The notes under the pieces are model-generated. The model was not told where the DNA came from and ran no database searches. It saw only the letters and a list, made by a program, of their open reading frames with translations. Shown here one piece after another: positions 3,195-62,502 of a stretch of 64,000 nt of DNA. The stretch covers positions 26,284 to 90,283 of the forward strand of contig JBKKBI010000084.1 of assembly GCA_046714175.1 (NCBI GenBank), written 5' to 3'. Position 1 is the stretch's first letter. Every line of letters starts with the position of its first letter. The stretch is from Acidimicrobiia bacterium (GTDB lineage: Bacteria > Actinomycetota > Acidimicrobiia > Spongiisociales > UBA11373). Position numbers and translations under genes: made by a program.

Positions 3195-3243
3195 GGCGGC
3201 AGAATAACAACACTGCTGTAATTTGCTGCCGATCTGGCGGAGG

Positions 3244-3296
3244 ACGGAGACCGGAAGCCGGAGACCGGAAACCGGAAGCCGGAGACCGGAGACCGC
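3244..3296. repeat. Phased heptanucleotide tandem array of (A/G)CCGGA(G/A) units, ~7.5 copies. It lies immediately 3' of the stop of the minus-strand thioredoxin-like gene and upstream of DUF3499.
   Basis: Read directly: acggaga ccggaag ccggaga ccggaaa ccggaag ccggaga ccggaga ccg. It is flanked at 3195-3240 by an AT-rich stretch (aataacaacactgctgtaatttg) bracketed by GGCAG...CTGCC. Confidence 0.85.
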
Positions 3297-3313
3297 CGCT
3301 GCCCGCTGGCAGC

Positions 3314-8724: not shown

Positions 8725-9434
8725 GCACCGCCGTCACGATCTTCCCCTTGCCGGGGATTCCCGAGATCGCCGTCGGCGATGACCTGCCGGCATTGCTGCT
8801 GGCGGCGATGCAGCGGGCCGGATGCTCCCCGACCCCCGGCGATGTGCTGGTCGTGACCCACAAGGTGGTCTCCAAAGCTGAGGGGGCAGTCGTAACCCTC
8901 GAGGGGGAGGACGAGGAACTCGCCTACCGGAACCTGGTGTTGAGCGAAGCGAGGGACGTGATCCGGCGCCGCGGTGACCTCGTGATCGCCCGCACCAAGC
9001 ACGGGTTCATTTGCGCCAACGCCGGTATCGATCGTTCCAACGCCGCCCCGGGGACTGCGGTCCTGCTCCCCCACGATCCCGATCGCTCGGCGCATGGGAT
9101 TCGCCTGGCGATCCGCGCCGCCACCGGCGTGGATCTCGCCGTGATCATTTCCGATACCTTCGGCCGCCCCTGGCGCCGGGGACTGACCGATGTCGCCATC
9201 GGCGTGTCGGGGATGCTCCCGATTCACGATCTGCGTGGCACGGTCGACGCCACCGGGCGAGAGTTGCACGTGACCGAAGTCGCGGTGGCCGACGAGATCG
9301 CCGCCGCCGCCGACCTGGTGATGGGAAAGGCTGCGGCGATCCCGGCGGCATTGGTGCGCGGAGTGGTGGTGCCAGCCGGTGAGGGGCGGGCAGCGGACCT
9401 GGTGCGGCCGGACGCGGAAGACTTGTTCAGGTAG
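8721..9434 (+). CDS. cofE: Coenzyme F420-0:L-glutamate ligase CofE (FbiB N-terminal-type, no nitroreductase domain)
   Basis: The ATG at 8721 overlaps the cofD stop. The product (237 aa) carries CofE family motifs (HKVVSKAEG, ICANAGID). The listed ORF from 8241 is an upstream in-frame extension that runs across cofD. Confidence 0.8.
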   Translation: MSTAVTIFPLPGIPEIAVGDDLPALLLAAMQRAGCSPTPGDVLVVTHKVVSKAEGAVVTLEGEDEELAYRNLVLSEARDVIRRRGDLVIARTKHGFICANAGIDRSNAAPGTAVLLPHDPDRSAHGIRLAIRAATGVDLAVIISDTFGRPWRRGLTDVAIGVSGMLPIHDLRGTVDATGRELHVTEVAVADEIAAAADLVMGKAAAIPAALVRGVVVPAGEGRAADLVRPDAEDLFR

Positions 9435-9517
9435 GGGCGAGGGGCGAGGGGCGAGGGGATGACAGATGGCAGATGGCAGATGGCAGATGGCGAGGGGCGA
9501 GAGGCTAGGGGCCCCGG
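9434..9517. repeat. Phased heptanucleotide tandem array, 12 units: GGGGCGA x3, GGGGATG, ACAGATG, GCAGATG x3, GCGAGGG, GCGAGAG, GCTAGGG. It begins on the last base of the cofE stop TAG.
   Basis: Read directly. All units share one 7-nt phase. The same unit types recur at 18498-18532. Confidence 0.9.
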
Positions 9518-9535: not shown

Positions 9536-10420
9536 ATGCCCGAACTCCCCGACATCGTCGTCTACCTGGAGAGGCTGCAGGCCCTGGTCGGCGAAGGGCC
9601 GCTTCTTGGCATCCGCTTGGGCAGCCCCTGGGTGTTGCGCACCGTGGATCCCCCGATCGAGTCCGTGGCCGGCAAGAAGGTGATCGGTTACCGGCGGATC
9701 GGCAAGCGGCTGGTGTTCGCCCTCGAGGACGACCTCTTCGTCGTGATCCACCTGATGATCGCGGGGAGGATGCGGATGCGGGCTCCCGGGACCGCGATCC
9801 CGCCCAAGCGCGGGTTGGCCGCACTCGACTTCCCGGCCGCAACCTTCTTGCTCACTGAAGAGGGAACCCAAAAGCGCGCCAGTGTCCACGTGGTGCGGGG
9901 GACGGCGGCGCTCGCTGAGCACGATCGCGGCGGCCTGGAACCCTACGCCATGACCGCGGCGGAGATGGGGGCGGCGCTGCGCCGGGGGCGCCACACCTTG
10001 AAGCGAGCCCTCACCGACCCCCGCGCCTTCTCCGGGATCGGAGGGGCCTACTCCGACGAGATCATGCATCGCGCCCGACTGTCGCCGATGGTCCTCACCG
10101 ACAAGCTCACCGACGACGACGTCGGCCGACTCCACGCGGCCACCACGGCGGTGCTCACCGAGTGGACCGAACGGCTTCGCGCGGAAGTCGGCGACGGTTT
10201 TCCGGAGAAGGTCACCGCCTTCCACGAGGCGATGGCAGTGCATGGCCGGTTCGGACAGCCATGTCCAGTGTGCCGGGCGCCGGTGCAGCGCATCGTCTAC
10301 GCCAGCAACGAGACCAACTACTGCCCGGGATGTCAGAACGGCGGGAGGATCCTGGCGGATCGGGCGCTGAGCCGGCTGCTCAAGGACGACTTTCCGCGCC
10401 GGCTGGAAGATCTGGAGTAG
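9536..10420 (+). CDS. Fpg/Nei family DNA glycosylase (formamidopyrimidine-DNA glycosylase / endonuclease VIII-like)
   Basis: N-terminal MPELPD catalytic Pro2/Glu3 and a C-terminal zinc finger (CPVCRAPV...YCPGCQ). Confidence 0.8.
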   Translation: MPELPDIVVYLERLQALVGEGPLLGIRLGSPWVLRTVDPPIESVAGKKVIGYRRIGKRLVFALEDDLFVVIHLMIAGRMRMRAPGTAIPPKRGLAALDFPAATFLLTEEGTQKRASVHVVRGTAALAEHDRGGLEPYAMTAAEMGAALRRGRHTLKRALTDPRAFSGIGGAYSDEIMHRARLSPMVLTDKLTDDDVGRLHAATTAVLTEWTERLRAEVGDGFPEKVTAFHEAMAVHGRFGQPCPVCRAPVQRIVYASNETNYCPGCQNGGRILADRALSRLLKDDFPRRLEDLE

Positions 10421-16745: not shown

Positions 16746-18497
16746 ATGGACTCCGTCCTCGTGGCCAACCGCGGCGAGATCGCGGTGCGGGTGATCCGAG
16801 GGGCCAAGGAGATGGGGCTACGCACCATCGCGGTGTACTCCGAGCTGGATCGCGATGCGGCTCATGTGCGGGCTGCTGATGAAGCTTGGAACATAGGACC
16901 CGCCCCGGCGGCCCAGTCGTACCTCGACATCGACAGCCTGTTGCGTGCCGCCGTACAGGCCAAGGCTGCCGCCATTCACCCCGGTTACGGATTCCTCGCC
17001 GAGAACGCGGGCTTCGCCCGCCGCGTCATCGAAGCCGGGCTGATCTGGGTCGGGCCCTCCCCCGAGGCGATCACCGCCATGGGCGACAAGATCTCGTCCC
17101 GGCGGATGGCGGAGAAGGCCGGCGTCGCCGGAGTCCCCGGCACTCTGGAACCGCTGGCGACGGTGGCCGCAGTGGAGGCGGTGGCGGAGCGTTTCGGCTA
17201 TCCGATCGCCATCAAGGCAGCCCATGGTGGTGGTGGCAAGGGCTTGCGGGTCGTGCACGAAAGGGCCGGGGTCGAGGCTGGCTTCGAGGCGGCGCAACGC
17301 GAAGCCGACGCCTATTTCAAGAACCCCGAGGTCTACGTTGAGAAGTACCTCGAGCGTCCGCGCCACATCGAAGCCCAGATCATCGTGGATCGCTATGGCA
17401 CCGGAGTCTTCCTCGGCGAACGCGATTGCAGCCTGCAACGCCGCCACCAGAAACTGATCGAGGAGTCTCCTTCGACCGCGATCGGCGACCGGCAGCGCAA
17501 GGCCCTGGGCAAGTCTGCTCTCGCCGTGGCCAAGGCTGCGGGATACGAGAACGCCGGGACGGTCGAGTTCCTGCTCGATGCGTCGGGTGACATCTACTTC
17601 CTCGAGATGAACACCAGGCTCCAGGTCGAGCACACCGTGACCGAGATGGTCACCGGCATCGACCTGGTGCGCGAACAGTTCCGGGTGGCTATGGGCGAGC
17701 CGTTGTCGTTCTCGGAGGTTTCGCCCCGGGGACATGCGATCGAATTCCGCATCAATGCCGAGGATCCGGCGAACGGGTTCTTGCCCAGCCCAGGACAGAT
17801 TTCTGAGTACTCCGAGCCCGGAGGCTTCGGCGTCCGCGTCGACAGCGGGTACGGGGCGGGTTCGGCGATCAGCCAGTACTACGACAATCTCGTCGCCAAA
17901 CTGATCGTGTGGGGACGGGACCGCGATGAGGCGATCTCCCGCTCCCGCCGAGCCTTGCGCGAGTTCGTAGTCGGAGGCATCGCCACCACGATCCCGTTCC
18001 ATCTCGCCGCCCTGGAGTCACCGGCCTTTCTCGCCGGAGAGCATCACACCCGCACCGTCGAGTCGGAGATGGACCTCTCTGGTCTGACCCAGCCCACCGG
18101 TCCCCCACTTCCCGAGGAAGAGGAACTCGCGGAGCGCCAGCTCACCGTCGAGGTCGGGGGACGCCGATTCGTGGTTCGGGTGTGGGCTCCGGAGACCGGA
18201 CCGGCACCGGCGGCGTCGGGCCGGCGCGCCGCGCCGCGGCGCCGCCCCCCCAAACTCGCCCAGGCACCGTCAGCAGGTTCCACCTCCGGCGCAGTCACCG
18301 CCCCGATGCAGGGAACGATCGTCAAGGTGCATCACAAGGCGGGAGAGCGAGTGGCCGCCGGAGATCCGCTGTTCATACTCGAAGCGATGAAGATGGAAAA
18401 TGAAGTGCGCTCCCCCGTCGACGGCGAGATCGTGGATCTCCGGGTGCAGCCCGGGGACCGGGTCGCCAGCGGGGCCGTGCTGGCGATCGTGAGGTAG
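16746..18497 (+). CDS. accA3: Acetyl/propionyl-CoA carboxylase alpha subunit (biotin carboxylase + BCCP, AccA3-like)
   Basis: The internal ATG at 16746 (MDSVLVANRGEIAVRVIR) is preceded by AGGA. It has ATP-grasp motifs and a C-terminal biotinyl-Lys motif EAMKMEN. Confidence 0.9.
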   Translation: MDSVLVANRGEIAVRVIRGAKEMGLRTIAVYSELDRDAAHVRAADEAWNIGPAPAAQSYLDIDSLLRAAVQAKAAAIHPGYGFLAENAGFARRVIEAGLIWVGPSPEAITAMGDKISSRRMAEKAGVAGVPGTLEPLATVAAVEAVAERFGYPIAIKAAHGGGGKGLRVVHERAGVEAGFEAAQREADAYFKNPEVYVEKYLERPRHIEAQIIVDRYGTGVFLGERDCSLQRRHQKLIEESPSTAIGDRQRKALGKSALAVAKAAGYENAGTVEFLLDASGDIYFLEMNTRLQVEHTVTEMVTGIDLVREQFRVAMGEPLSFSEVSPRGHAIEFRINAEDPANGFLPSPGQISEYSEPGGFGVRVDSGYGAGSAISQYYDNLVAKLIVWGRDRDEAISRSRRALREFVVGGIATTIPFHLAALESPAFLAGEHHTRTVESEMDLSGLTQPTGPPLPEEEELAERQLTVEVGGRRFVVRVWAPETGPAPAASGRRAAPRRRPPKLAQAPSAGSTSGAVTAPMQGTIVKVHHKAGERVAAGDPLFILEAMKMENEVRSPVDGEIVDLRVQPGDRVASGAVLAIVR

Positions 18498-18532
18498 GCA
18501 GATAGGGGCGAGGGGCGAGGGGCGAGGGGGTC
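18498..18532. repeat. Phased heptanucleotide array GCAGATA, GGGGCGA x3, GGGGGTC, starting directly after the accA3 stop TAG and reaching the stop of the convergent DMT gene
   Basis: Read directly. It has the same unit types as the 9434-9517 array. Confidence 0.85.
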
Positions 18533-19361
18533 ACCCAAGGGCGATCAGCACCACCGCGACGGCTGCCAGCACCAAGCCGACCCACTGTCTTCGGACCACG
18601 CGTTCCCCTAGCACCACCCGGGCGAGCGCGATCGTCGTCGCCGGGTAGAGAGACATGATCACAGCCACCAGGGACAGCAGTTCGCGACGGACCGCCAGCA
18701 GGAACAAGACGTTGCCGGCGGTGTCGAGCAGCGCCGATGTCGCGATCATCGACCAGGTGCTGCGCGCCGCCAGCAGCGGACGCCCCATCAACAGCACCAA
18801 GGTGCCCAGGAGCACCACCGATGAGAGGCGCGCCGCCACCAGCGGCCACATTCCGGTGTCGGAGCCGCTGCGAGAGATGAGGATGCCGAACAGCGCAAAG
18901 GCGGCTCCGGCAAGGGCACCGAGCCACGCCGCCCGCAATGCCGGGCCGGAGTCGGGGCGTCCCACGGAGAGCAGGACCACCGCCGGGGCGGCCAGCACCA
19001 TGCCCAGCCACGCGATCGCTTCGGGACGCTCCCCGATGAAGATCCCGAACAGCACCGGCAGAACCGTGCCCACCACGGCCGCCACCGGCGCCGCCACCGA
19101 GATCCGCGTGGTGGCCAGAGCGTGATACAGGAGTACCAGACCGATCGAGGCGGCGATGCCGCCGCCCGCCCCCCACAGCAGCCCGCCCCCCACTGCAAAG
19201 CCGGAACCGAACGCGGGGGCGATAGCAGTCACCGCCACCATTCCCACCACCTGCGCCCCCCACACCACCGTTACCGCCGGAGCCCGTCGGGTGGCGAGAC
19301 CGCCGACAAAGTCCGCTACTCCGAAGACGAGGCTGGACAATCCGGCGAGGAGCAGCGGCAT
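18531..19361 (-). CDS. DMT (EamA-like) family transporter
   Basis: A 276-aa protein with ~10 hydrophobic helices and an EamA-like duplication. Confidence 0.65.
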   Translation of the reverse strand: MPLLLAGLSSLVFGVADFVGGLATRRAPAVTVVWGAQVVGMVAVTAIAPAFGSGFAVGGGLLWGAGGGIAASIGLVLLYHALATTRISVAAPVAAVVGTVLPVLFGIFIGERPEAIAWLGMVLAAPAVVLLSVGRPDSGPALRAAWLGALAGAAFALFGILISRSGSDTGMWPLVAARLSSVVLLGTLVLLMGRPLLAARSTWSMIATSALLDTAGNVLFLLAVRRELLSLVAVIMSLYPATTIALARVVLGERVVRRQWVGLVLAAVAVVLIALG

Positions 19362-22415: not shown

Positions 22416-24881
22416 ATGGATATCTCCATCCACGAGGTGGAACGCCTCGAGCAACAAGGCCACCGCCTCACCGCGGCGACCACTCTCGCCGCCATCGTCG
22501 TGGTGGCGGCTACCTGGTTCGCCCTGGTGGGGTTCCTAGGAGCCAACAGCGCCCACGGAACTCTCGAAGACTGGCGCGAGCAGTGGATACCTGATGTGGG
22601 TTCCATGGTGCTCGACCTCCCCGACCTCGGCCGGTTGTCCTCCGTATACACCGCTGATGGTGTCCTGCTCGGCCAACTCACTGAGCGCAACAGTCAGCCG
22701 ACGGTCTTCGACGAGATTCCCAACCTCGTGATTGGTGCGGTGCTCTCGGCAGAGGACGACGACTTCATGGAGCACAGCGGCATCGACTTCCAGGCCATCG
22801 CCCGGGCGCTGCTCGAGGACCTCAGCGGGGGGCCGAAACAGGGCGGATCGACCATCACCCAGCAGGTGGTGAAGCTCAACTTCGTCGGCACCGAACCGAC
22901 CCTGCAGCGCAAGGTCGCCGAGGCCACCATCGCCATCGAGCTGGAACGCCGGTTCACAAAAGAGCAGATCCTGGAGTACTACCTGAACTCCGTGTACTTC
23001 GGCTCCAATGCCTACGGCATCACCGCAGCGGCGCAGGAGTACTTCGGCAAGGCCCTCGATCAGCTCACGATCGCCGAGGCCGCCGCCCTCACCGTGCCGA
23101 TCCGCAACCCGTCGCTGTACAACTTGCGCAACGACAGCGAGATCCCGAGGCGAGCCCGCGATGCGGTCATCGACAACATGGTTCAGGAGGGATACATCAC
23201 CGCCTCCGAGGGCCGAACGGCCAAGGCGCAGCCGATCGTCACCGTGGTGCACGAGGAGTCCATCGACCCGGCGCCACAGGTGCTGATCGCGGCCCGCGAC
23301 GGGGTGCTCAACGACGCGCGCTACGGGCTCGGAGCGACCTTCCTGCAACGCAAGCGCGCCGTCTTCGGATGTCCCGCGGATGACGCCGAGTGCACCGGCG
23401 GGGGTGGCCTGCGCATCTTCACCACCGTCGACTGGCGGCTCCAGGAAGAGGCGCGGCGCATCCTGCAGGAGTGGTTCCCGCCCGGCACCGGTCTCCCCAC
23501 CGGGGCCATCGCCATGGTGGACAATCGCACCGGGGCGACGGTGGTGATGGCATCAGGTCTGGACTTCGGTACGGACCTCGAAGCCGGCCAGCGCCAGTAC
23601 GACTTGGCGACCAAGGGCCGCCGCAACCCCGGGTCGGCATTCAAGCCCTTTGGAGCGATCGCCGCCCTCGAGCAGGGCATCCCGCTCGGCTCGTACTGGG
23701 ATGATTCGTCCCCGCAGACCCTGGATTACGGGGGGATCGAGCCGTGGGAATGTGCCAATGCCGGGACCAACTCCCCCGGGATCCGCACGCTGGAGGAGGC
23801 GCTGTACCGCTCCATCAACACGGTCTTCTGCCAGGTGTCGATCGCGGTTGGACCGGAGCACATCGTCGACGTCGCCCACCGGATGGGGATTCGGTCGCCC
23901 CTCGGAGCGGTGCCTGCGATCGTCCTCGGGGCGCAGGCGGTCAGTCCACTGGAGATGGCGGCCGCCTTCTCCACCATCGCCAATCAGGGACTGCGGGTCG
24001 ACAATTACCTGATCGAGCGGATCGAGGATGGAGACGGCAACGTCATCTATCAGCACGAAGTCGGGGCCACCCAGGTGCTGGAGCCTGCACTGAGTGCCGC
24101 GGTGCTCAACACCCTGGAGAAGGCGATCACCCTTGGCACCGGCGGCAACGCCGACATCGGGCGGCCGCAGTTCGGCAAGACAGGAACTCACGAGTCGTAT
24201 CGGGACGCCTGGTTCGTCGGCGGAATCCCGCAGTTCACGACGGCAGTGTGGGTGGGATTCCCCGACGCCCAGACCGAGATGCGCAATGTCACCGTGAAGC
24301 CGAACCGGGACGACCGGGAGACGATCCCCCGCATGTTCGGCTCGAGCGCCCCGGCTCCCATCTGGAGAGAGTTCATGCTGATCGTCGTCGCCGGCCTCGC
24401 CGTCGAGGACTTTCTCCCCGACCCTTCCGGGATCGAGGTCTACTACACGACGCCGCGGGTGGAGATGCCAGACGTGATCGGCATGACCCGCGACGACGCC
24501 GAAGACGCGGTGCGCCGCGCCGGACTCCAGGTCGAGGTCGAGACGGTGAACTCGGAGGAGCCTGCAGGTCGGGTAGTGGGCTCCGACCCCGGACCGGGAG
24601 AGCGAATCCGGCAGGGAACCGTGGCCATCATCGAAATCTCCAACGGGCTCTCGCCGACCGTTTCGGTTCCGAACCTCATCGGCACCAGCCAGGCGTCGGC
24701 GACCCAGACCCTGACTCAGTTGCGCAACAGCAGCAACGTCGACTTCGACTGGGTCTTCGAAGACGTCTCTACCGGGGTCCCCTCCAACGATGGCCTGGTC
24801 CAAGCGATGGTCCCGGGACCAGGAACGACCATCGACAAGGACGACACGATCGTGATCACGGTGTGGAGATACAGCCCGTAG
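22416..24881 (+). CDS. Class A penicillin-binding protein (transglycosylase + transpeptidase) with two C-terminal PASTA domains
   Basis: TM anchor, GT51 motifs ([20 protein letters not shown]), transpeptidase SxxK/KTGT (GSAFKPF, KTGT), and two PASTA repeats at the C-terminus. Confidence 0.9.
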
Positions 24882-24923
24882 GCAGTTACCAGTTACCGGT
24901 TGCCAGTTAGGCATCCGGCATCC
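24882..24923. repeat. Phased heptanucleotide array GCAGTTA, CCAGTTA, CCGGTTG, CCAGTTA, GGCATCC x2, starting directly after the PBP stop TAG
   Basis: Read directly. GGCATCC is a circular permutation of the ATCCGGC unit at 50775-50823. Confidence 0.8.
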
Positions 24924-26240: not shown

Positions 26241-28400
26241 ATGCCGATGCCCGGGGGCATGACCATCCCATCCCCCGCACGGGCAAGGGCCCGGCGGATT
26301 CTCCCGGCCATCGTGGCCTTGGCCATCGCCCTGGCCACCTTTCCGGTGCCCGCGGCCGGAGCCAGCACCAACTTCACCTTTTCCGGGGGTGGTTACGGAC
26401 ATTCCGTCGGTCTGAGCCAGTTCGGCGCCTACGGGATGGCGCGAGAGGGCTACTCGTGGGCCCAGATCATGTCGCACTATTTCACCGGAACCACTCCCGG
26501 CGCGGTTGACGCCGCCACCGCCGCCCGACCGTTGTGGGTCAACCTCCAGGTGGAACAGGCCGCGGTGACGTTCGTGGTCCGGGCCACCGGGACCACTGCG
26601 GGCGCCCCCGTCACCATCACGTCGGCTGGTGGAACCCTCGTGGCCTCGAGCGGACAGACGATCAGGATCACGCGCAGCGGCAACACCTGCACCGCCACCG
26701 CCCCCGCCGGCACGACCACCGGGCCGTGCACGATCGATCTGGGATGGGACGGGAACAGCGGCGACCCGACCACAGCCCTCGTGATCGATGGCTGCTATCA
26801 GACGAACTGGAATCTCACCACGGGCTCGCGCCAGCAACCCTGCACGTATGCGCGGGGATCGATCCACCTTCGGCCCGACAACAACACCGAGACCATGGCC
26901 GTTTCCCTCGAGATCGCCATGGAGGACTACGTCCTCGGCATCTCCGAGATGCCCTACTTCTGGGGGGACCAGGGCGGAGCCGCCGCCCTCGCCGCCCAAG
27001 CGGTCGCGGCCCGCTCTTATGCCTATGCCCGGCTCCTGGCGCGGGGCACCCCCGAGTCGCGCCCGTGGTGTTGGTGCCAGGTGTACGACACCCCCGTCGA
27101 CCAGAACTACGTCGGCTGGGGCCACGGCACCCAGACCTGGATCGATGCTGTCCGGGCAACCGCCGGACAGGTCATGTACCACCCCGAAACCACTCGCAGC
27201 GGAGTCCAGGTTCCGATCCCGACCTTCTACTCGTCGAGCACCTTCGGGCGCACCGAGAACTCCCAGGACGCCTTTACCGCCACCGTCGCCTATCTGCGCT
27301 CTGTCGACGACCACTGGGCAGGCGCTAACGGAGTGGGCAACGGCAACTACCGATGGAGCCGCACCTTTTCGTCCGATCAACTGGCCGCCACCCTTCCCGG
27401 GCTGAGCACCGTCACGGGGGCAACGATCACCCGGTGCTCGGTCTCCGGTGCGGCGTTGGAGGTCACCTTCTCCGGAAGCGGTGGTCCGCGCGCCTTTCAC
27501 GTTCGCCAGCTGCGCAGCCTGCTCAGCCTGCGCTCCCAGCAGATCTACGCCATCAATGGAGTCGCACCCTGTACCGCCGCCGCAGCCACGACCACGACCA
27601 CGTCGACAACCACCACGACGCTCCCGGCAACCACGACAACCACCAACCCTGGTGACTCCACCACGACCTCGACGCTACCGACCACCACCACCAGCCCTGG
27701 CGAAACGACCACCACGACGTTCGCGTCCACCACCTCCACGACCCTCCCGTCCCCGACCACGACGACGTTGGCCGCCACTACCACTACCACTGCTCCCACC
27801 ACCAACACGACCACCACCACGACCACCACCGTGCCACCGTCCACCACGACGACGATCGGAGCGGGGTCCGGACCTTCCTGTGTGGTGGCGATCCCGCCGA
27901 TCGACGCGCTCGCCGGCACGGGCACCAGTCTGCGCACCGGAAGCCAGGGGCCGGCGGTGGCGCAGCTTCAGGTGCTTCTCACCATCCTGGGCCACTACCA
28001 GGGCACTGCCGACGGCGTGTACGGACGATTGACCACCGCGGCAGTGCGGTCGTTCCAGGACTCGCGCGGCCTTTTCGTGGACGGCGTGGTGGGAAGCCGC
28101 ACCCGGAGCGAGTTGGTGGCCTTGCATGCGGCCGCCGAACGAGGACGCATCCTCAGCGCCGACCCCGGGCTCCTCCGCCGCGGCGCCTACAGCGAGGCCG
28201 TGGGGGCCCTGCAGTACCTCCTGGCACGACTCGGGTTCCAGCCCGGCCCGATCGACGGAGCATTTGGGAGCCGGACCGACACCGCAGTGCTCGCTTTCCA
28301 ACGCTCCAAGGCACTCACCGTGGACGGGATCGTCGGCGATGAGAGCAAACGCGCTCTGGCGGCAGCGCTGGGTCTGCAGGCCTTGATCTCATGTCGGTGA
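26241..28400 (+). CDS. SpoIID/LytB-domain protein with Thr-rich low-complexity linker and two C-terminal peptidoglycan-binding (PG_binding_1) domains
   Basis: Signal peptide, the SpoIID signature GGGYGHSVGLSQFGAYGMA, a ~95-aa poly-Thr/Pro linker, then two LxxGxxGxxVxxLQxxL repeats typical of PG_binding_1. Confidence 0.8.
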   Translation: MPMPGGMTIPSPARARARRILPAIVALAIALATFPVPAAGASTNFTFSGGGYGHSVGLSQFGAYGMAREGYSWAQIMSHYFTGTTPGAVDAATAARPLWVNLQVEQAAVTFVVRATGTTAGAPVTITSAGGTLVASSGQTIRITRSGNTCTATAPAGTTTGPCTIDLGWDGNSGDPTTALVIDGCYQTNWNLTTGSRQQPCTYARGSIHLRPDNNTETMAVSLEIAMEDYVLGISEMPYFWGDQGGAAALAAQAVAARSYAYARLLARGTPESRPWCWCQVYDTPVDQNYVGWGHGTQTWIDAVRATAGQVMYHPETTRSGVQVPIPTFYSSSTFGRTENSQDAFTATVAYLRSVDDHWAGANGVGNGNYRWSRTFSSDQLAATLPGLSTVTGATITRCSVSGAALEVTFSGSGGPRAFHVRQLRSLLSLRSQQIYAINGVAPCTAAAATTTTTSTTTTTLPATTTTTNPGDSTTTSTLPTTTTSPGETTTTTFASTTSTTLPSPTTTTLAATTTTTAPTTNTTTTTTTTVPPSTTTTIGAGSGPSCVVAIPPIDALAGTGTSLRTGSQGPAVAQLQVLLTILGHYQGTADGVYGRLTTAAVRSFQDSRGLFVDGVVGSRTRSELVALHAAAERGRILSADPGLLRRGAYSEAVGALQYLLARLGFQPGPIDGAFGSRTDTAVLAFQRSKALTVDGIVGDESKRALAAALGLQALISCR
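27588..27855 (+). repeat. In-frame ACC/ACG-rich simple-sequence region encoding the Thr/Pro-rich linker of the SpoIID protein
   Basis: Read directly: accacgaccaccacg... with period 3, encoding TTTTTSTTTTTLPATTTTTNPGDSTTTSTLPTTTT... Confidence 0.8.
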
Positions 28401-39731: not shown

Positions 39732-41222
39732 TCACGCCAGCTCCTGCTCCCAGTCCCACGTCTCCAGATTCTGTTTGATCCTGCTCAGGAACTTCACCGC
39801 CGTCGATCCATCGAAGGCCCGATGGTCCCAAGACAGGCCGAGGTACCCGACATGGTGGATGGCAATCGCGTCGTTGCCGTCACGGTCGGTCACCACGATC
39901 GGCCTCTTGACCACGGTATCCGTGGACAGGATTGCCACATTCGGCACGTTGATGATCGGAGCGGACATGAACGACCCGAAGGGTCCCGGGTTGGTGATCG
40001 TGAATGTGGACCCGGCGAGGTCGTCGGGCTCCATCTTCCCGGAGCGGGCCTTCTCGGCGAGACGGCGCACTTCGCGGGCGATGCCGCGCATCCTCAGACC
40101 GTCGGCGCCGCGCATCGTCATCACCAAGAGCCCTTCTTCCTCGAGGTCGACTCCGTAGCCGAGGTTGACCGTTCCATGGAGTATGCGCGCCTTGTTCACC
40201 AGGTCGAGGCTCGAGTTCACCACCGGAAACATGCCGAGCGCGTCGACGACCGCACGGCTGACAAATGGGAGGTAGGTAAGCGAGAAACCCTCCCGCTCCT
40301 TGAACGCGTCGCGGTGACGGCGGCGCACGCGCTCCACCGGCTCGAAGTCGACCTCGACCGACGTCCACACGTGGGCGGCGGTCTGCTTGGCTCGGATCAT
40401 GTTGTCAGCGATCCGAATGCGCAGCCGCGACAGATCCTCGACGCGATCACCTCCCCCGGTGTGCATCGTCGCCGCGGTCTGGGGCGCCGGTGCCACCGCG
40501 GGGGGCGACGCCACGGTCGGCTGGGACGGGGTGAACATGGCGTGCTCAGCCGGCTTGTCGACGATCAAATCCGAGATACCGCGACCCAATACGGTGCGAG
40601 GGGGTTCGCCCCCGACTGCCTCCAGAGGTCCCGGGGCGGAGGCGATGAACGCTTCCAGGTCACGCCGGGTGATGCGACCGTCGGTCCCGGTGCCAGCCAC
40701 CCGCGCCAGATCCACGCCGTGCTCGATGGCGAGACGGCGCACCACCGGCGACAGCATCCCGACTTCCGCCCCGGCCGTGGCAGGCACGCCGGTGGGTACC
40801 ACTGTTGCCGGCGGGGGGCTTACGGCCTGCAGTACCGCCTGGGGCGGCTCGGCTGGCTGCGGCTCGGCCGGCTGCGGCTCGGCTGGCTGCGGAACCGTCG
40901 CCTGTGGGGCGGCCGCGGGAGCAGCGGGGGGGACCGGGGATGCAGCCACCGCGGGAACAGGCGCCGCCGCTCCGCCGGCCTCACCAGGCTGTCCGATGAC
41001 GACCAATGGGGTGCCGACAGCGACGGTCGCCCCCTCAGGAACCAAGATCTCAAGAATGGTCCCCGCCACCGGCGACGGCACCTCGGTGTCGACCTTGTCG
41101 GTCGAGATCTCGAGAAGGACCTCGTCTTCGCGAATGGTGTCTCCCGGCTGCTTCGACCACTTGAGGATCGTGCCTTCCGTGACCGTCTCGCCGAGCTGAG
41201 GCATGGTGACCGTAAGGGACAT
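39732..41222 (-). CDS. Dihydrolipoamide acyltransferase E2 component of a 2-oxoacid dehydrogenase complex
   Basis: Lipoyl domain (EISTDKVD), a Pro/Ala/Glu-rich linker with a QPAEP x3 repeat, the E3-binding domain, and the catalytic domain with DHR motif (SWDHRAFDG). Confidence 0.9.
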   Translation of the reverse strand: MSLTVTMPQLGETVTEGTILKWSKQPGDTIREDEVLLEISTDKVDTEVPSPVAGTILEILVPEGATVAVGTPLVVIGQPGEAGGAAAPVPAVAASPVPPAAPAAAPQATVPQPAEPQPAEPQPAEPPQAVLQAVSPPPATVVPTGVPATAGAEVGMLSPVVRRLAIEHGVDLARVAGTGTDGRITRRDLEAFIASAPGPLEAVGGEPPRTVLGRGISDLIVDKPAEHAMFTPSQPTVASPPAVAPAPQTAATMHTGGGDRVEDLSRLRIRIADNMIRAKQTAAHVWTSVEVDFEPVERVRRRHRDAFKEREGFSLTYLPFVSRAVVDALGMFPVVNSSLDLVNKARILHGTVNLGYGVDLEEEGLLVMTMRGADGLRMRGIAREVRRLAEKARSGKMEPDDLAGSTFTITNPGPFGSFMSAPIINVPNVAILSTDTVVKRPIVVTDRDGNDAIAIHHVGYLGLSWDHRAFDGSTAVKFLSRIKQNLETWDWEQELA

Positions 41223-49747: not shown

Positions 49748-50683
49748 ATGCAATGGGCACTGATGACGGAACCGCACACCGGCATGAGCTACGACACCCT
49801 CCTCGCGATGGCGCAGTTCGCCGAACGGTCGGGGCTTGATGCCTTCGCTCGGTCCGATCACTTCTTCGCCGACCGCATCGACCGTCCCAATGCGACCGAC
49901 GCCTTCGCGACGCTCGCCGGGCTGGCGCGGGACACGAACCGCGTCGAACTGGTGGTGCTGGTGAGCCCCATCACATTCCGTCACCCCGGTGTGATTGCCA
50001 AGTCCGCGGCGACGATCGATGAGATGTCGGCCGGCCGGTTTGCCCTCGGCGTAGGCACCGGATGGATGGAGGCCGAGCACGTAAAGTTCGGTCTCCCCTT
50101 CCCGGCCCTGGGAGAGCGCTTCGCCCGCTTGGAGGAGTCATTCGCCTACCTGCACCACGCACTGGGCCGCGCCTCCGGTCCTTACGCCGGGGACTACTAC
50201 GCCCTCGAGAACTCCGACGTGTATCCCCGACGGCCCGGAGTCCGTCTGATCGTCGGCGGGACCGGGGAGCGGCGCACTCCCCGCCTCGCCGGGACGTACG
50301 GGGACGAGTACAACTTCACCCTTCGCCCGGAAGCCGACCCGAAAGTGCGCATTGGCCGGGTGCGGGCGGCCGCGGAACGCGCCGGACGCGATCCCGGGTC
50401 GATCACTCTCTCGGTGATGACCCAGGTCGTGACCGGGGAGACCCCGCCCGAGTTCGCCCGCAATTTGGCCCGCGTGGCGGCCGCCGATCCCTGGGGTTCC
50501 GATCCCACCACCATCGAAAAGCACCATCGCGGCCGCGGCCTCCCCATCGGCACCGGGCCCGAGGTTCGGGAGCGCATCGCCCAGATCGCCGCCCTGGGCG
50601 TCTCCCGGATCTACGTCCAGCACTTCGGTCCCTATGAGACGGACTTGCTCGAGGAGACCTTCGGAGTGTTGCGCGGCGAGTGA
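49748..50683 (+). CDS. LLM class (luciferase-like) F420-dependent oxidoreductase
   Basis: A TIM-barrel LLM family protein (FARSDHFF, LGVGTGW). Consistent with the cofD/cofE genes in the window. Confidence 0.75.
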   Translation: MQWALMTEPHTGMSYDTLLAMAQFAERSGLDAFARSDHFFADRIDRPNATDAFATLAGLARDTNRVELVVLVSPITFRHPGVIAKSAATIDEMSAGRFALGVGTGWMEAEHVKFGLPFPALGERFARLEESFAYLHHALGRASGPYAGDYYALENSDVYPRRPGVRLIVGGTGERRTPRLAGTYGDEYNFTLRPEADPKVRIGRVRAAAERAGRDPGSITLSVMTQVVTGETPPEFARNLARVAAADPWGSDPTTIEKHHRGRGLPIGTGPEVRERIAQIAALGVSRIYVQHFGPYETDLLEETFGVLRGE

Positions 50684-50823
50684 GATAACAGATAACAGAT
50701 AACAGATAACAGATAACAGATAACAGATAACAGACAGCAGGCAGCAGGCAGCAGACAGCAGACAGCAGACCAATCGATCGAGTCCGGCATCCGATATCCG
50801 GCATCCGGCATCCGATATCCGGT
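50684..50823. repeat. Phased heptanucleotide tandem array, 20 units: GATAACA x6, GACAGCA, GGCAGCA x2, GACAGCA x2, GACCAAT, CGATCGA, GTCCGGC, ATCCGAT, ATCCGGC x2, ATCCGAT, ATCCGGT, ATCCGGC. It begins directly after the TGA of the LLM gene.
   Basis: Read directly. It runs 140 nt in a single 7-nt phase and is the largest of five such loci. Confidence 0.95.
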
Positions 50824-50869
50824 ATCCGGCACTTGGGTACCACTCCGGAGCCTCTTATCCTTCCCTCCC

Positions 50870-51625
50870 GTGCCCGCAACCCCCCTGCTCGTCATCGACG
50901 ACCTCCACGCCGCCGCTGCTGGGGTCCCGATCCTGCGTGGGGTCGATCTCACGATCGAACCCGGGGAAACCCACGCCCTGATGGGTCCGAACGGCTCGGG
51001 CAAGTCCACCCTGGGCAATGTCCTGATGGGACACCCCGGGTATCAGGTCATGTCGGGGCGGATCCTGTTCAAGGGGGAAGATGTCACCACCTGGACCCCG
51101 GATGCCCGGGGGCGCGCCGGCATGTTCCTTGCCTTCCAGTACCCCGAAGAGATCCCCGGAGTGACCGTGGTGAACTTTCTCCGCACCGCGCTGTCGAATC
51201 GTACGGGCACGGAGTACACCGTCCTCGAGCTCCGCCTCAAGGTGGCGGACACCATGAAGACGCTCGGCATTGACGCCGGGTTTGCCGACCGCTACTTGAA
51301 CGAAGGCTTCTCCGGGGGCGAGCGCAAGCGGAACGAGGTACTGCAAATGGCGGTACTCGAACCCGAGCTGGCGATCATGGACGAGACCGACTCCGGCCTG
51401 GACGTGGATGCACTCAGGATCGTCGCCGAGGGGGTCACCCGACTGCAGTCGCCGACCCGCGGTTTCCTCGTCATCACTCACTATCAGCGGCTCCTCGAGT
51501 ACATCACTCCCGACCGCGTGCACGTGTTTGTCGCCGGACGAATCGTCGAGTCGGGGGGTGAGGAGTTGGCCCGCCGCATCGAGCTCGAGGGCTACGACAC
51601 CTTCCGCATCGGAACCGGGTCGTGA
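50870..51625 (+). CDS. sufC: Fe-S cluster assembly ATPase SufC (copy 1)
   Basis: Walker A GPNGSGKST, the ABC signature LNEGFSGGERKR, and the SufC-type C-terminus. The start codon is GTG. Confidence 0.85.
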   Translation: MPATPLLVIDDLHAAAAGVPILRGVDLTIEPGETHALMGPNGSGKSTLGNVLMGHPGYQVMSGRILFKGEDVTTWTPDARGRAGMFLAFQYPEEIPGVTVVNFLRTALSNRTGTEYTVLELRLKVADTMKTLGIDAGFADRYLNEGFSGGERKRNEVLQMAVLEPELAIMDETDSGLDVDALRIVAEGVTRLQSPTRGFLVITHYQRLLEYITPDRVHVFVAGRIVESGGEELARRIELEGYDTFRIGTGS

Positions 51626-51821
51626 CAAGCACCGCTCCCACCTACCCGCAAGGGGATTTCCGGTTGCCGGTTTCCAGTTGCCGGGTCTTGGCAGTGGGCG
51701 CACCTCGGCGCGGCTCTCGCCCATCTCTCGTCGGCCATCGCCACGCGTCCGGCGAGTTCTGCATTGCGCATTGTGAATGGCGCCCGGTCACTGCCATTGG
51801 ACTGTCGCGCCAGGTGGCAGC

Positions 51822-53054
51822 GTGAAGACCGACCTCTCCCACCTCCGCGCCGACTTCCCCATCCTGAGCCGCGAGGTCAACGGCAAGCCGCTCGTCTATT
51901 TGGACAGCGCCGCCACGACCCAGAAGCCGTTACAGGTCCTCGAGGCGATGGATGACTACTACCGATTGCACAACGCCAACGTTCACCGCGGCGCCTACCG
52001 CCTGGCGGAGGAGGCGACCGGGCTGTACGAAGGAGCCCGGAACAAGGTGGCCCGGTTCATCAACGCCGCCGCGCCCGAAGAGCTGGTGTTTACCCGCGGT
52101 ACCACTTCCAGCATCAATGCCATCGCCTACGGCTGGGGGTTGTATCACCTGCGGCCGGGGGATCGCATCGTCCTCACCACAATGGAGCACCACGCCAACA
52201 TCGTGCCGTGGCAACTGATCACCCGCCACACCGGTGCCGAGCTGGTCTATCTGCCGTTGGGTGTGGACTTTCTGGTCGACGTCTCCGCGCTGGACGCCAT
52301 CGTCGATGAGAGGGTGAAGATCGTCGCCGTTTCCGGAATGTCGAACGTCCTCGGGTCGATCGGTCCGCTCACCGCCGCGGTGGCGGCGGCCCGTGCTGTG
52401 GGGGCAATAACTGTTGTCGATGCCGCCCAGCTTGTCCCGCACCATCCCACCGACGTGCAGGCGCTAGGCGCCGATTTCGTCGCCTTCAGCGCTCACAAGA
52501 TGCTGGGGCCCACCGGCATCGGGGCGCTGTGGGGCAGGCGCGATCGACTGGAGGAGATGGAACCCGCCGAAGGCGGCGGAGAGATGATTCGCGACGTACA
52601 ACTCCATGCCTCGACATGGGCCGACCTCCCCCACAAGTTCGAAGCAGGAACCCCCCCGATCGCCGAGGCGGTGGGCTTCGGAGCAGCCGTGGACTATCTC
52701 GCGGCCGTCGGAATGGACAATGTGCGTCGCCACGAGCAGGAACTCACCCGCTATGCGCTCGATCGGTTGGCGGAGATCCCCGACCTCAAGGTCTACGGTC
52801 CCACCGACACCGCGCTCCGCGGGGGCGCCGTCTCATTCACGCTGGCGGACATCCATCCCCACGATCTGGCGACGATCCTCGACCAGGAAGGCGTGGCGGT
52901 GCGGGCAGGTCACCACTGCGCCAAGCCGCTGATGCGGCACCTCGATGTCGCGGCAACTGCCCGCGCCTCGTTCTACATGTACAACGTGCCGGAGGAAGTG
53001 GACATCCTGGTAAAGGCACTGCATGAGGCGAGGAGGCTGTTCGGTGTCGCTTGA
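51822..53054 (+). CDS. sufS: Cysteine desulfurase SufS (class V aminotransferase, group II)
   Basis: YLDSAATTQKP, the PLP-Lys region SAHKMLGPTGIG, and the active-site Cys in HHCAKP. GTG start at 51822. Confidence 0.85.
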   Translation: MKTDLSHLRADFPILSREVNGKPLVYLDSAATTQKPLQVLEAMDDYYRLHNANVHRGAYRLAEEATGLYEGARNKVARFINAAAPEELVFTRGTTSSINAIAYGWGLYHLRPGDRIVLTTMEHHANIVPWQLITRHTGAELVYLPLGVDFLVDVSALDAIVDERVKIVAVSGMSNVLGSIGPLTAAVAAARAVGAITVVDAAQLVPHHPTDVQALGADFVAFSAHKMLGPTGIGALWGRRDRLEEMEPAEGGGEMIRDVQLHASTWADLPHKFEAGTPPIAEAVGFGAAVDYLAAVGMDNVRRHEQELTRYALDRLAEIPDLKVYGPTDTALRGGAVSFTLADIHPHDLATILDQEGVAVRAGHHCAKPLMRHLDVAATARASFYMYNVPEEVDILVKALHEARRLFGVA

Positions 53055-61935: not shown

Positions 61936-62019
61936 GGAAATACGCTACCGCGGCGCCCTGCCCATTGCCCGTTACCCGGGCCGACCGCCCATCGTCCCTG
62001 GCACATGGCCAATGGCCGC

Positions 62020-62502
62020 TCAGATCACGTTGTCACTTTTCCCTGACATCTGTCGCACCACGTCGGTCTGTCCGGTGTGATACGTGTCGTGGAAGTAGCC
62101 GAACATCACCTGGGCGCCCCGGGGGGCGGTGCGCCCCTCTCCGGAGGGCAGCTCGGCGGCCATCGAGGCATCGTCGGCCGCGGCCAGGGCGGCCTCGAGG
62201 CGCTTCTCGGTGCGGTCCAGCGCGGCGAGAAGGTCGGCCAGGGCGAGTACCCCGGGACCATCGCCGGTGATCGGTTCACTCTCGCGGCGGTAGCGCTCGG
62301 CTCGCGGCCCCAGAACAGGTTCGCCACCCAGGACACCGAGGATGTCGTCCCGGGTTGCCACGATGTGGCCCACCACCCAGTTGAAGCAGTTGGTGTTGTA
62401 ACCAGATTGGCGGAGGGCATCCTCCTCGGTGAGCCCGGCGGCGTGGGCGATGATCAGCCGCTGGTTGCGGCGAAACCCTCGCGCCAAGAGATCGGGGAGC
62501 AC
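62020..62502 (-). CDS. DinB/YfiT-like metal-dependent hydrolase superfamily protein (DinB_2)
   Basis: A 160-aa protein with a four-helix bundle and conserved His triad positions (HAAG...H..., HDTYHTGQ). Confidence 0.55.
   Translation of the reverse strand: MLPDLLARGFRRNQRLIIAHAAGLTEEDALRQSGYNTNCFNWVVGHIVATRDDILGVLGGEPVLGPRAERYRRESEPITGDGPGVLALADLLAALDRTEKRLEAALAAADDASMAAELPSGEGRTAPRGAQVMFGYFHDTYHTGQTDVVRQMSGKSDNVI

What the first reader, a model, noticed from the sequence alone, without database searches (positions are those of the whole stretch)
50684..50823. Family of stop-codon-abutting, single-phase heptanucleotide tandem-repeat arrays at five loci
Five intergenic loci (3244-3296, 9434-9517, 18498-18532, 24882-24923, 50684-50823) consist of perfect head-to-tail 7-nt units. 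Each array starts on or directly after the stop codon of the preceding gene (cofE, accA3, PBP, LLM oxidoreductase, and the minus-strand thioredoxin-like gene). Every array changes unit type in blocks, for example 6x GATAACA, then GRCAGCA x5, then ATCCGRY x6, yet never breaks the 7-nt register over 140 nt. A 7-nt period cannot be coding, and in-frame stops appear at once (GAT AAC AGA TAA), so these are not read-through extensions. They are neither CRISPR (no spacers) nor mycobacterial MIRU-like elements (which have 40-100-bp units). Four of five loci are AT-enriched relative to the ~70% GC background. They look like a dedicated genomic element class. Possible roles are protein-binding arrays or roadblocks at operon ends, slippage-prone contingency tracts setting terminator or UTR length, or spacer DNA insulating convergent or tandem transcription units.
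Basis: seen in the sequence. Interest (0 to 1): 0.85.

Follow-up and report, generated by a model that had tools for sequence, protein, structure and literature searches.

The report
Seven-base tandem repeats filling gene gaps
The gaps after several housekeeping genes of this uncultured Acidimicrobiia-like actinobacterium are filled with head-to-tail 7-base repeats, a real but already described kind of bacterial simple-sequence repeat that most likely grows by replication slippage wherever extra DNA does no harm.

Summary
The arrays are real. Period 7 gives 5 strong runs in the window against 0.24 expected from shuffles. All six clear arrays lie in the 5.5% of the window that is intergenic.

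They are not a new element class. Heptanucleotide long simple-sequence repeats hugging or overlapping stop codons are described in Xanthomonas, Nostoc, Beggiatoaceae and Chloroflexus. This is a new lineage: the best genome match is Acidimicrobiia, not Mycobacterium.

At the flagship locus, relatives without arrays have 8-20 nt between the LLM stop codon and a conserved promoter-like element. Array-bearing relatives have about 40-200 nt of heptamers in that slot, with species-specific units. Two 99.75%-identical metagenome contigs differ by a single indel, one 7-nt unit inside such an array.

No RNA structure or unit sequence is common to the arrays. Only (GGGGCGA)3GGGG at two loci fits a G-quadruplex.

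Best reading: slippage-generated, length-variable filler bounded by selection on the stop codon and the next promoter.

Still unexplained: why the period is 7, and why each genome reuses its own units at unrelated loci (11/63 versus 9/603 locus pairs).

Interest is modest.

The parts
3238..3295 (-). Array 1. Read on the minus strand it is about 8 units of CCGGTCT / CCGGCTT / CCGGTTT. It lies between the stop codon (3314-3316) of the Grx/Trx-like gene and the promoter-like region of a DUF3499 gene (2967-3194, minus).
   Evidence: TRF period 7 at 81% matches, period 21 at 89%. Flanking genes. The array starts 18 nt after the stop codon.
3298..3313 (-). A small 6-bp hairpin (GCUGCC-AGCG-GGCAGC) directly after the stop codon and ahead of array 1.
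   Evidence: With the CCGG-phased array, this stretch gives z = -2.26.
9433..9512 (+). Array 2: (AGGGGCG)3 AGGGGAT GACAGAT (GGCAGAT)3 GGCGAGG GGCGAGA GGCTAGG. It begins on the AG of the cofE TAG stop codon (9432-9434) and ends 23 nt before the ATG of the fpg/nei-like gene (9536).
   Evidence: The first 25 nt form a canonical G4 motif.
18498..18530 (+). Array 3: GGCAGAT (AGGGGCG)3 AGGGGG. It fills the whole gap between the accA3-like stop codon (18495-18497) and the stop codon of the converging EamA gene (18531-18533).
   Evidence: It shares 27 identical bases (TAGGGGCGAGGGGCGAGGGGCGAGGGG) with array 2. G4 motif.
24882..24923 (+). Array 4: GGCAGTT ACCAGTT ACCGGTT GCCAGTT AGGCATC CGGCATC. It starts directly after the TAG stop codon of the class A PBP gene (24879-24881) and ends 79 nt before the next ORF.
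50683..50732 (+). Array 5a: (GATAACA)7, perfect. It starts on the A of the LLM oxidoreductase TGA stop codon (50681-50683). This unit was seen in none of the orthologous spacers of the relatives examined.
   Evidence: (100% matches).
50733..50767 (+). Array 5b: GACAGCA GGCAGCA GGCAGCA GACAGCA GACAGCA. The same CAGCAGA-type block is present at the orthologous position in L084, L085 and L081.
   Evidence: This block differs by one unit between L084 and L085.
50768..50788 (+). A 21-nt degenerate bridge: GACCAAT CGATCGA GTCCGGC. It reads as three decayed units.
   Evidence: read in register.
50789..50830 (+). Array 5c: ATCCGAT ATCCGGC ATCCGGC ATCCGAT ATCCGGT ATCCGGC. L081 has the same block at the same position. 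The unit differs by one base from the conserved flank CCGGCAC next to the -35 element.
50833..50861 (+). A conserved promoter-like element that bounds the array: TTGGGT (-35), a 17-nt spacer, TATCCT (-10), then 8 nt to the GTG start of the SufC-like gene at 50870. This suggests a leaderless or near-leaderless transcript.
   Evidence: Conserved in about 20 relatives whether or not they carry arrays. The promoter function is inferred. The strict consensus scan did not call it.
51657..51684 (+). It starts 31 nt after the SufC-like stop codon (51623-51625) and lies upstream of sufS (51777).
   Evidence: The orthologous spacer also carries arrays in L081, L082, L084 and L092.
61950..62019 (-). A possible decayed seventh array after the stop codon of the minus-strand gene 62020-62502. 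On the minus strand it reads CCATTGG CCATGTG ... GGGTAAC GGGCAAT GGGCAGG, with G-tracts phased at 7 nt.
   Evidence: Lag-7 autocorrelation 0.64 against 0.46 for other lags. Sequence. G4 pattern hit at 61956-61977 on the minus strand. The evidence is weak.

Best explanation
These are heptanucleotide long simple-sequence repeats, a micro-satellite with a 7-nt unit.

Inferred mechanism: they arise and are continually remodelled by strand slippage or unequal exchange during DNA replication or repair. Whole 7-nt units are gained or lost. Point-mutated units are then amplified into new blocks, for example GACAGCA to GATAACA x7.

The process can only persist where length changes are harmless. That is the slot between a stop codon and the next constrained element, which is either the -35 of the downstream promoter or the converging gene's stop codon.

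Purifying selection on those two boundaries, together with loss of unique non-functional spacer, makes the arrays appear to abut the stop codon. The stop-containing heptamer is often just the first, slightly different, unit of the array.

The arrays need no sequence-specific function. At most, some blocks have side effects, for example the (GGGGCGA)3GGGG blocks as G-quadruplexes.

Shown here: location, boundaries, turnover between species and one-unit polymorphism. Inferred: slippage as the cause and near-neutrality.
For: 1. Only period 7 is enriched, and all arrays are intergenic.

2. In relatives the same spacers carry arrays with different units. In the LLM-to-sufC spacer these are GATAACA, CAGCAGA, ATCCGGC, AGCTCTC, AGCTGAC, CTGCAAT, GCGAATA, CCAGTAA and CGTTWCT. 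Array-free relatives have only 8-20 nt between the stop codon and the conserved promoter-like element CTTTCGGTA/CTTGGGTA-N17-TATCCT.

3. L084 and L085 come from two metagenomes and are 99.75% identical over 7.87 kb. Their only indel is one CAGCAGA unit.

4. Neighbouring blocks differ by 1-2 substitutions in register. TRF also finds periods 14 and 21, as expected from multi-unit slippage.

5. The stop-codon heptamer matches the array unit at 3.15 of 7 positions, against 1.81 of 7 for upstream coding heptamers. Examples are TAGGGGC|GAGGGGC and TGAGATA|ACAGATA. In L086 the ORF runs two codons into the array.

6. The last block, ATCCGGC, is one base away from the conserved flank CCGGCAC, which suggests it was seeded locally.

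7. The arrays share no RNA structure: z = -2.3, +0.2, +0.6, +0.9, -0.3 and -1.5. There is no Rfam match, and no terminator pattern in the one region scanned, 50400-52000.

8. The flanking genes are housekeeping genes.

9. Published heptamer SSRs in Xanthomonas and Nostoc show the same placement and the same variation between species (PMC4692102). Slippage was proposed for them by Mrazek et al. 2007, as summarised in PMC4679880.
Against: - Slippage alone does not explain why the period is 7 and not 5 or 8. Only two period-8 runs were seen in relatives.
- It does not explain why the same units recur at unrelated loci within one genome: 11/63 locus pairs within genomes against 9/603 between genomes, with 0 of 5000 permutations reaching the observed value. 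One case is an identical 27-nt (GGGGCGA) tract with exactly four G-runs at two loci 9 kb apart.
- Some blocks persist at orthologous sites between species whose flanking protein is only 66-73% identical. That is long for neutral DNA in a compact genome.
- The polymorphism evidence is a single case, in a relative rather than in this organism. Short-read assemblies can mis-size repeats.
- No other strain of this organism was available.
Confidence: 0.65

Rival explanations
1. The arrays are selected structural elements of the DNA or of the 3' UTR. They would be G-quadruplexes or hairpins that stop, pause or insulate transcription between neighbouring units, or that stabilise the mRNA 3' end.
For: - Arrays 2 and 3 both carry exactly four GGGG runs with 3-nt loops on the sense strand at the stop codon. 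These are the only uniform four-layer G4 motifs in the window.
- Four units on the coding strand within 50 nt of the stop codon is the pattern reported for Xanthomonas and Nostoc (PMC4692102).
- Arrays 1 and 6 fold somewhat better than shuffles (z = -2.3 and -1.5).
- Relatives carry inverted heptamer arrays that would form long hairpins just after accA: L010 and L003.
Against: - The largest array and array 4 have no G4 motif and no structure (z = -0.3 and +0.9).
- No hairpin-plus-T-tract terminator was found in the region scanned.
- Array-free relatives manage with 8-20 nt in the same spacer.
- Units differ freely between species.
Confidence: 0.15
2. The arrays are a dispersed, self-propagating satellite. 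Unit blocks would be copied between unrelated intergenic sites by ectopic recombination, gene conversion, templated break repair or an unknown enzyme. Slippage would only maintain them afterwards.
For: - Each genome has its own unit repertoire: 17% of locus pairs share a unit within genomes against 1.5% between genomes.
- Examples: AGGGGCG+GGCAGAT at loci 2 and 3, CCGGCAT at loci 4 and 5, CCRGTTN at loci 1, 4 and 6.
- Further examples: CAGCTGA at four L082 loci, and CAGACGG at three L007 loci in both orientations.
- The same puzzle is noted for TAACTGA ('no mechanism is evident'; PMC4679880).
Against: - The arrays share no flanking sequence, terminal repeat or associated gene.
- Some units look locally seeded from the stop codon or from the promoter flank.
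- A genome-specific mutational or selective bias could give the same pattern.
Confidence: 0.12
3. The arrays are binding platforms for a sequence-specific DNA- or RNA-binding protein, acting as roadblocks or post-transcriptional regulators.
For: - Regular spacing of a short motif is what oligomeric binders use. From my own knowledge, HutP binds UAG triplets spaced 7 nt apart.
- A Nostoc preprint speculates that a protein binds heptamer repeats (10.1101/2022.06.06.494920).
Against: - At least ten unrelated unit sequences occur in this window alone, and orthologous sites carry different units.
- Copy number ranges from 3 to 21.
- No candidate protein was identified.
Confidence: 0.04
4. The arrays are contingency (phase-variation) loci whose copy number switches expression of the flanking gene.
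For: Copy number varies, and the arrays lie next to promoters.
Against: - At the flagship locus the array lies upstream of the -35 or after the stop codon, not between -35 and -10 and not in a reading frame.
- The flanking genes are core metabolism genes: cofE, accA3, a PBP, and sufC/sufS.
Confidence: 0.03
5. The arrays are assembly or sequencing artefacts.
For: The source is probably a metagenome-assembled genome. Tandem repeats can be mis-sized in assemblies.
Against: Arrays occur at orthologous spacers in independent NCBI, ENA and JGI assemblies, with conserved flanks. Exact copy numbers remain uncertain.
Confidence: 0.01

Closest known systems
Heptanucleotide long simple-sequence repeats (LSSRs) of non-host-adapted prokaryotes (Mrazek, Guo and Shah 2007, as summarised in PMC4679880 and PMC4692102)
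   Same: 7-nt unit, head-to-tail arrangement, much longer than chance allows, and intergenic. They occur in large, high-GC free-living genomes, including Actinobacteria. Polymerase slippage is the proposed origin.
   Different: Not reported for Acidimicrobiia: a literature search found nothing. Here single tracts are mosaics of several unit types. In a relative (L082) arrays occupy 13 of 17 spacers, about 0.7 per kb, against about 0.04 per kb for the Xanthomonas family.
GGGAATC / GGGGA(C/T)T G-quadruplex heptamer repeats of Xanthomonas and Nostoc (Rehm et al. 2015, PMC4692102)
   Same: [quoted passage not shown] They are under-represented between divergent genes. Four units are preferred. Position is kept between species while length and sequence vary. 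The flanking genes are housekeeping genes. Arrays 2 and 3, (GGGGCGA)3GGGG, fit this closely.
   Different: The unit sequence is different. Most arrays here (GATAACA, GRCAGCA, ATCCGGC, CAGTTAC, CCGGTCT) have no G-tracts. There are several families per genome rather than one dominant family.
Cyanobacterial STRR heptamers (Calothrix and Nostoc; cited in PMC4692102, otherwise from my own knowledge of Mazel et al. 1990)
   Same: Several different tandem heptanucleotide families dispersed in the intergenic DNA of one genome. Their function is unknown.
   Different: Different phylum and different units. As far as I know, the mosaic block structure and the boundary at a conserved promoter were not described there.
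TAACTGA repeats of marine Beggiatoaceae, some Cyanobacteria and Bacteroidetes (MacGregor 2015, PMC4679880)
   Same: Intergenic heptamer direct repeats. Units that contain stop triplets necessarily mark ORF ends. Each genome has a preferred unit, and the way it spreads is unexplained.
   Different: Those repeats lie mostly just upstream of start codons, consist of 2-6 copies, and use one unit shared across phyla. Here they lie mostly just after stop codons and use many units.
(GATAGRA)n satellites of Chloroflexus aurantiacus (Subirana and Messeguer 2019, PMC6749651)
   Same: A heptamer-derived satellite family in a non-pathogen. The Oscillochloris relative L010 here also carries heptamer arrays after accA.
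   Different: One family dominates there. Placement relative to genes was not analysed in the passages I read.
Phase-variation SSRs of host-adapted pathogens
   Same: Copy number changes driven by slippage.
   Different: Those have 1-5-nt units, lie inside ORFs or promoter spacers, and flank surface or virulence genes. None of that applies here.

Membership tests
Heptanucleotide long SSR (LSSR / STRR-type) | Head-to-tail copies of a 7-nt unit with no spacers | tested here: met
   TRF period 7 at all loci, 80-100% matches, 0% indels. Also read directly.
Heptanucleotide long SSR (LSSR / STRR-type) | Longer and more frequent than chance allows in that genome | tested here: met
   5 runs against 0.24 in 50 dinucleotide shuffles. 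Other non-multiple-of-3 periods give 0-1 runs.
Heptanucleotide long SSR (LSSR / STRR-type) | Strong bias to non-coding DNA | tested here: met
   6 of 6 arrays lie in the 5.5% of the window that is intergenic. No convincing case inside a gene among about 50 arrays in relatives.
Heptanucleotide long SSR (LSSR / STRR-type) | Copy number varies between close relatives | tested here: met
   L084 and L085 differ by one unit, the only indel in 7.87 kb. Not testable for this organism itself, because only one contig carries its proteins.
G4-forming heptamer repeats (Rehm et al. type) | A G-tract of at least 3 in every unit and at least 4 units | tested here: inconclusive
   Met by the (GGGGCGA)3GGGG blocks of arrays 2 and 3, and weakly by 61956-61977 on the minus strand. 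Not met by arrays 1, 4, 5 and 6.
G4-forming heptamer repeats (Rehm et al. type) | Actual quadruplex formation | not testable with these tools
   Only a ViennaRNA G-quadruplex prediction is available: -51.6 against -29.8 kcal/mol and -39.1 against -7.9 kcal/mol.
CRISPR array | Repeats of about 24-48 nt separated by unique spacers | tested here: not met
   7-nt units with no spacers.
MIRU / VNTR minisatellites of mycobacteria | Units of 40-100 bp in a mycobacterial genome | tested here: not met
   The unit is 7 nt. The best genome match for the accA3-like protein is 75% to an Acidimicrobiia MAG.
Intrinsic terminator | GC-rich hairpin followed by a T tract | tested here: not met
   None found in 50400-52000, the only region scanned. 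Folding z-scores are mostly near zero.
Known structured RNA (Rfam) | Match at the gathering score | tested here: not met
   No matches in the whole window.
Phase-variation contingency locus | SSR inside an ORF or between -35 and -10, flanking a surface or virulence gene | tested here: not met
   At the flagship locus the array ends upstream of the -35-like element. The neighbouring genes are housekeeping genes.

The most novel reading that the evidence does not exclude
In some Acidimicrobiia, heptamer arrays may be more than passive slippage products. They may be a genome-specific, actively spreading intergenic satellite. Unit blocks would be copied between unrelated gene ends by a lineage-specific repair or polymerase activity with an intrinsic 7-nt step. 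The arrays could then be retained as length-adjustable insulators, all-frame stop signals or G4 modules between the end of one gene and the promoter of the next.
Probability: 0.12. Interest if true: 0.6.

Novelty: new member of a known kind. Interest (0 to 1): 0.3.

Why it matters
Why 7-nt units dominate the long simple repeats of many free-living bacteria is an old, unsolved question. So is whether these repeats do anything. Standard SSR surveys (1-6 nt) and tandem-repeat surveys (10 nt or more) skip heptamers altogether; the 2026 Actinomycetota survey I checked does so.

This lineage offers a clean comparative system:
- close relatives with and without arrays in the same spacers;
- sharply defined boundaries, a stop codon on one side and a conserved promoter-like element on the other;
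- very high density in some members.

That system could be used to look for the repair or polymerase genes that correlate with array formation.

For annotation, it is useful to know that these tracts are hypervariable filler. They may be mis-sized in assemblies and can supply or shift stop codons.

Tried and rejected
The accA3-like protein is 75% identical to an Acidimicrobiia MAG and 63-68% to the next hits, which are labelled Acidimicrobiia, Actinomycetes or Actinomycetota.
- **Strain polymorphism in this organism: could not be tested.** Exact-protein look-ups for the window's own genes found no contig. The LLM protein cluster has a single member. I used the L084/L085 pair in a relative instead.
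- **Known RNA families: none**.
- **Promoter and terminator consensus scan around the flagship array: nothing**. The promoter-like element was found by comparative alignment instead.
- **A common RNA hairpin: rejected**.
- **Rho-loading (YC-rich, G-poor) tracts: rejected by inspection.** GATAACA, GRCAGCA and AGGGGCG have no YC dinucleotide on the sense strand.
- **Units as a 6-bp palindrome plus one base.** This is true for several L082, L007 and L005 units (CAGCTG, GAGCTC, AGATCT, TCATGA, AGTACT) but for none in the window. By a rough count it is not clearly above chance.
- **Enrichment of stop triplets in units.** It is suggestive only in the stop-codon register: 4 of 20 against about 1 expected.
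- **Shared flanks or terminal repeats that would indicate a mobile element: none**.
- **Decayed arrays in the other long spacers of the window: only one weak candidate**.
- **The Mrazek 2007 paper itself is not in the held library**. It is cited second-hand.

Full report
**Observation**

The sequence at all five reported loci consists of head-to-tail 7-nt units. Tandem Repeats Finder reports period 7 with no indels and 80-100% matches.

A diagonal self-match scan finds four strong runs at period 7 and none at periods 4-6, 8-11 or 13. With a laxer threshold there are five runs, against 0.24 expected from 50 dinucleotide-preserving shuffles.

I found a sixth array at 51657-51684. There is also a weak, decayed candidate after the minus-strand gene that ends at 62020.

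All six clear arrays lie in the 3,543 nt (5.5%) of the window outside my gene calls and make up 11% of it.

Pfam assigns the upstream genes as follows:
- Grx/Trx-like gene, minus strand: array 1
- cofE: array 2
- accA3-like biotin carboxylase: array 3, converging with an EamA transporter gene
- class A PBP: array 4
- LLM oxidoreductase: array 5
- SufC-like ATPase: array 6

Arrays 2-5 begin on or within 1 nt of the stop codon. Array 1 begins 18 nt after it, beyond a small hairpin. Array 6 begins 31 nt after it.

Several details in the finding need correcting:
- There are 7 GATAACA units, not 6.
- The flagship array ends at 50830.
- Only two of the five arrays are AT-enriched.
- The GGGGCGA-type unit in array 2 reappears out of phase with its first block, so 'single phase' is partly a matter of description.

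**Organism and relatives**

The window is not mycobacterial. The accA3-like protein is 75% identical to an uncultured Acidimicrobiia MAG. The next hits, at 63-68%, are labelled Acidimicrobiia, Actinomycetes or Actinomycetota.

Only one contig in the protein collection carries this organism's LLM protein.

Period-7 arrays are patchy among relatives. They are absent from about 21 kb each of L001, L002 and L006. They are present in L003, L005, L007, L081, L082, L084/L085 and L092, and also in an Oscillochloris (Chloroflexota) contig.

In L082 about 15 arrays lie in 21 kb. They occupy 13 of 17 spacers, including divergent promoter regions, and make up roughly a quarter of the intergenic DNA. The link to stop codons is therefore a tendency, not a rule.

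By my rough gene calls, arrays in tandem spacers lay nearer the stop codon than the next start codon in 16 of 24 cases. Eleven lay within 8 nt of the stop codon and three within 8 nt of the start codon.

**The flagship spacer compared across species**

Synteny (LLM, sufC-like, sufS, nifU) is conserved.

About 20 relatives share a promoter-like element in front of the sufC-like gene. It reads CTTTCGGTA or CTTGGGTA, about 17 nt, TATCCT, then 7-9 nt to the start codon. This suggests a leaderless or near-leaderless transcript.

Relatives without arrays have only 8-20 nt between the LLM stop codon and this element. Relatives with arrays have about 40-200 nt of heptamers in exactly that slot.

The unit depends on the species: GATAACA, CAGCAGA, ATCCGGC, AGCTCTC, AGCTGAC, CTGCAAT, GCGAATA, CCAGTAA and CGTTWCT.

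Some blocks are shared. The CAGCAGA block occurs in the window, L084 and L081. The ATCCGGC block occurs in the window and L081. The flanking protein in these relatives is only 66-73% identical.

The perfect GATAACA x7 block was seen only in the window. It is two substitutions away from the neighbouring GACAGCA unit.

The last unit type, ATCCGGC, is one base away from the conserved flank CCGGCAC beside the -35 element. That suggests local seeding.

**Polymorphism**

L084 and L085 come from two different JGI metagenomes. They are 99.75% identical over 7.87 kb, with 13 substitutions and a single indel. That indel is one CAGCAGA unit in the array at the LLM stop codon.

**Boundaries**

Read in the register of the stop codon, the stop-containing heptamer is often a slightly different first unit. 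Examples are TAGGGGC|GAGGGGC, TGAGATA|ACAGATA and, in relatives, TAGCGAT x4 and TGAGTAC x2.

Its mean identity to the array unit is 3.15 of 7, against 1.81 of 7 for upstream coding heptamers.

In L086 the ORF runs two codons into the array and uses the array's TAA.

The arrays thus extend until they meet constrained bases on both sides.

**Structure and known families**

There is no Rfam match in the window. No consensus promoter or terminator was found around the flagship array, the only region scanned.

RNA folding of the six array regions gives z-scores of -2.3, +0.2, +0.6, +0.9, -0.3 and -1.5. No structure is common to them.

The exception is (GGGGCGA)3GGGG in arrays 2 and 3. It is an identical 27-nt tract at two loci and a canonical G-quadruplex motif.

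**What is known**

Heptanucleotide repeats are the most abundant long-SSR class in many free-living prokaryotes, including Actinobacteria. Polymerase slippage was proposed as their origin (Mrazek et al. 2007, summarised in PMC4679880).

In Xanthomonas and Nostoc, GGGAATC-type heptamer repeats have the following properties (PMC4692102):
- 89-93% intergenic in Xanthomonas;
- on average 28 nt from the upstream ORF against 160 nt to the downstream ORF in Xanthomonas;
- often overlapping the stop codon;
- rare between divergent genes;
- preferentially four units long;
- of unknown function.

TAACTGA repeats (PMC4679880), (GATAGRA)n in Chloroflexus (PMC6749651) and the cyanobacterial STRR heptamers are further examples.

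I found no report for Acidimicrobiia.

**Explanation**

The best-supported reading is slippage-generated, length-variable filler. It is confined by selection to the dispensable slot between a stop codon and the next promoter or converging stop codon.

Two things remain unexplained.
- The first is the specificity for 7 nt.
- The second is that each genome reuses its own units at unrelated loci. Units are shared in 11 of 63 locus pairs within genomes against 9 of 603 between genomes, and no label permutation out of 5000 reached that value.

The second point leaves room for inter-locus copying or a genome-specific bias. The paired G4 tracts leave room for a structural role for a subset of blocks.

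**Verdict**

This is a real feature and a new lineage for a known kind of repeat. It is not a new element class, and interest is modest.

Noticed in passing
window 50833-50869, and the equivalent positions in L081-L104: A conserved promoter-like element (TTGGGT or TTTCGG, 17 nt, TATCCT) ends 7-9 nt before the start codon of the SufC-like gene in about 20 relatives. It points to a leaderless or near-leaderless transcript. A similar TATTCT-N6-ATG arrangement precedes the DUF3499 gene at about 3192-3210 on the minus strand.
   Followed up: partly
L084 9941-9968 versus L085 4239-4263: Two JGI metagenome contigs are 99.75% identical. Their only indel is one 7-nt unit of a heptamer array.
   Followed up: yes
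L082 1-20933: This relative, from a farmland metagenome, carries about 15 short tandem arrays in 21 kb. They occupy 13 of 17 spacers and about a quarter of the intergenic DNA, including divergent promoter regions. One array has period 8: (GCCTTCTT)8 at 4346-4410.
   Followed up: partly
L007 9402-9445 / 9940-9966 and 11770-11800 / 12723-12752: Pairs of arrays of the same unit in inverted orientation (CAGACGG and CCGTCTG; CAGTACT and CTAAGTA) bracket segments of about 0.5 kb and 0.9 kb next to accA3. The window has no counterpart to the first segment. These pairs could drive inversions or mark inserted DNA.
   Followed up: no
L010 2478-2547 (Oscillochloris, Chloroflexota): (AGATTGC)4 is followed by its inverted copy (GCAATCT)4 five bases after the end of the accA-like gene match, forming a long perfect hairpin. 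The same unit (CTGCAAT) occurs in the Acidimicrobiia contig L084. Sharing across phyla may be chance.
   Followed up: no
window 9433-9459 and 18503-18529: An identical 27-nt tract, TAGGGGCGAGGGGCGAGGGGCGAGGGG, with exactly four G-runs, occurs at two loci 9 kb apart. In both it lies next to a GGCAGAT unit.
   Followed up: partly
window 27586-27845: Imperfect CCA/ACC-rich repeats of period 3, 12, 24 and 48 lie inside a 719-aa ORF (26241-28400) with SpoIID and peptidoglycan-binding domains. This is presumably a low-complexity linker.
   Followed up: no
window 40844-40892: A period-15 repeat, (GCGGCTCGGCTGGCT) x3.3, lies inside the E2 acyltransferase gene (39732-41222, minus). It is probably the Ala/Pro-rich inter-domain linker.
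   Followed up: no
window 61950-62019: A decayed 7-nt periodicity with G-tracts phased at 7 nt (GGGTAAC GGGCAAT GGGCAGG on the minus strand) follows the stop codon of the gene at 62020-62502.
   Followed up: partly
window 50676-50683 versus L081 and L082: The LLM protein in the window ends ...LRGE*, whereas relatives end ...LRG*. The stop codon was shifted by one codon at the edge of the array.
   Followed up: partly
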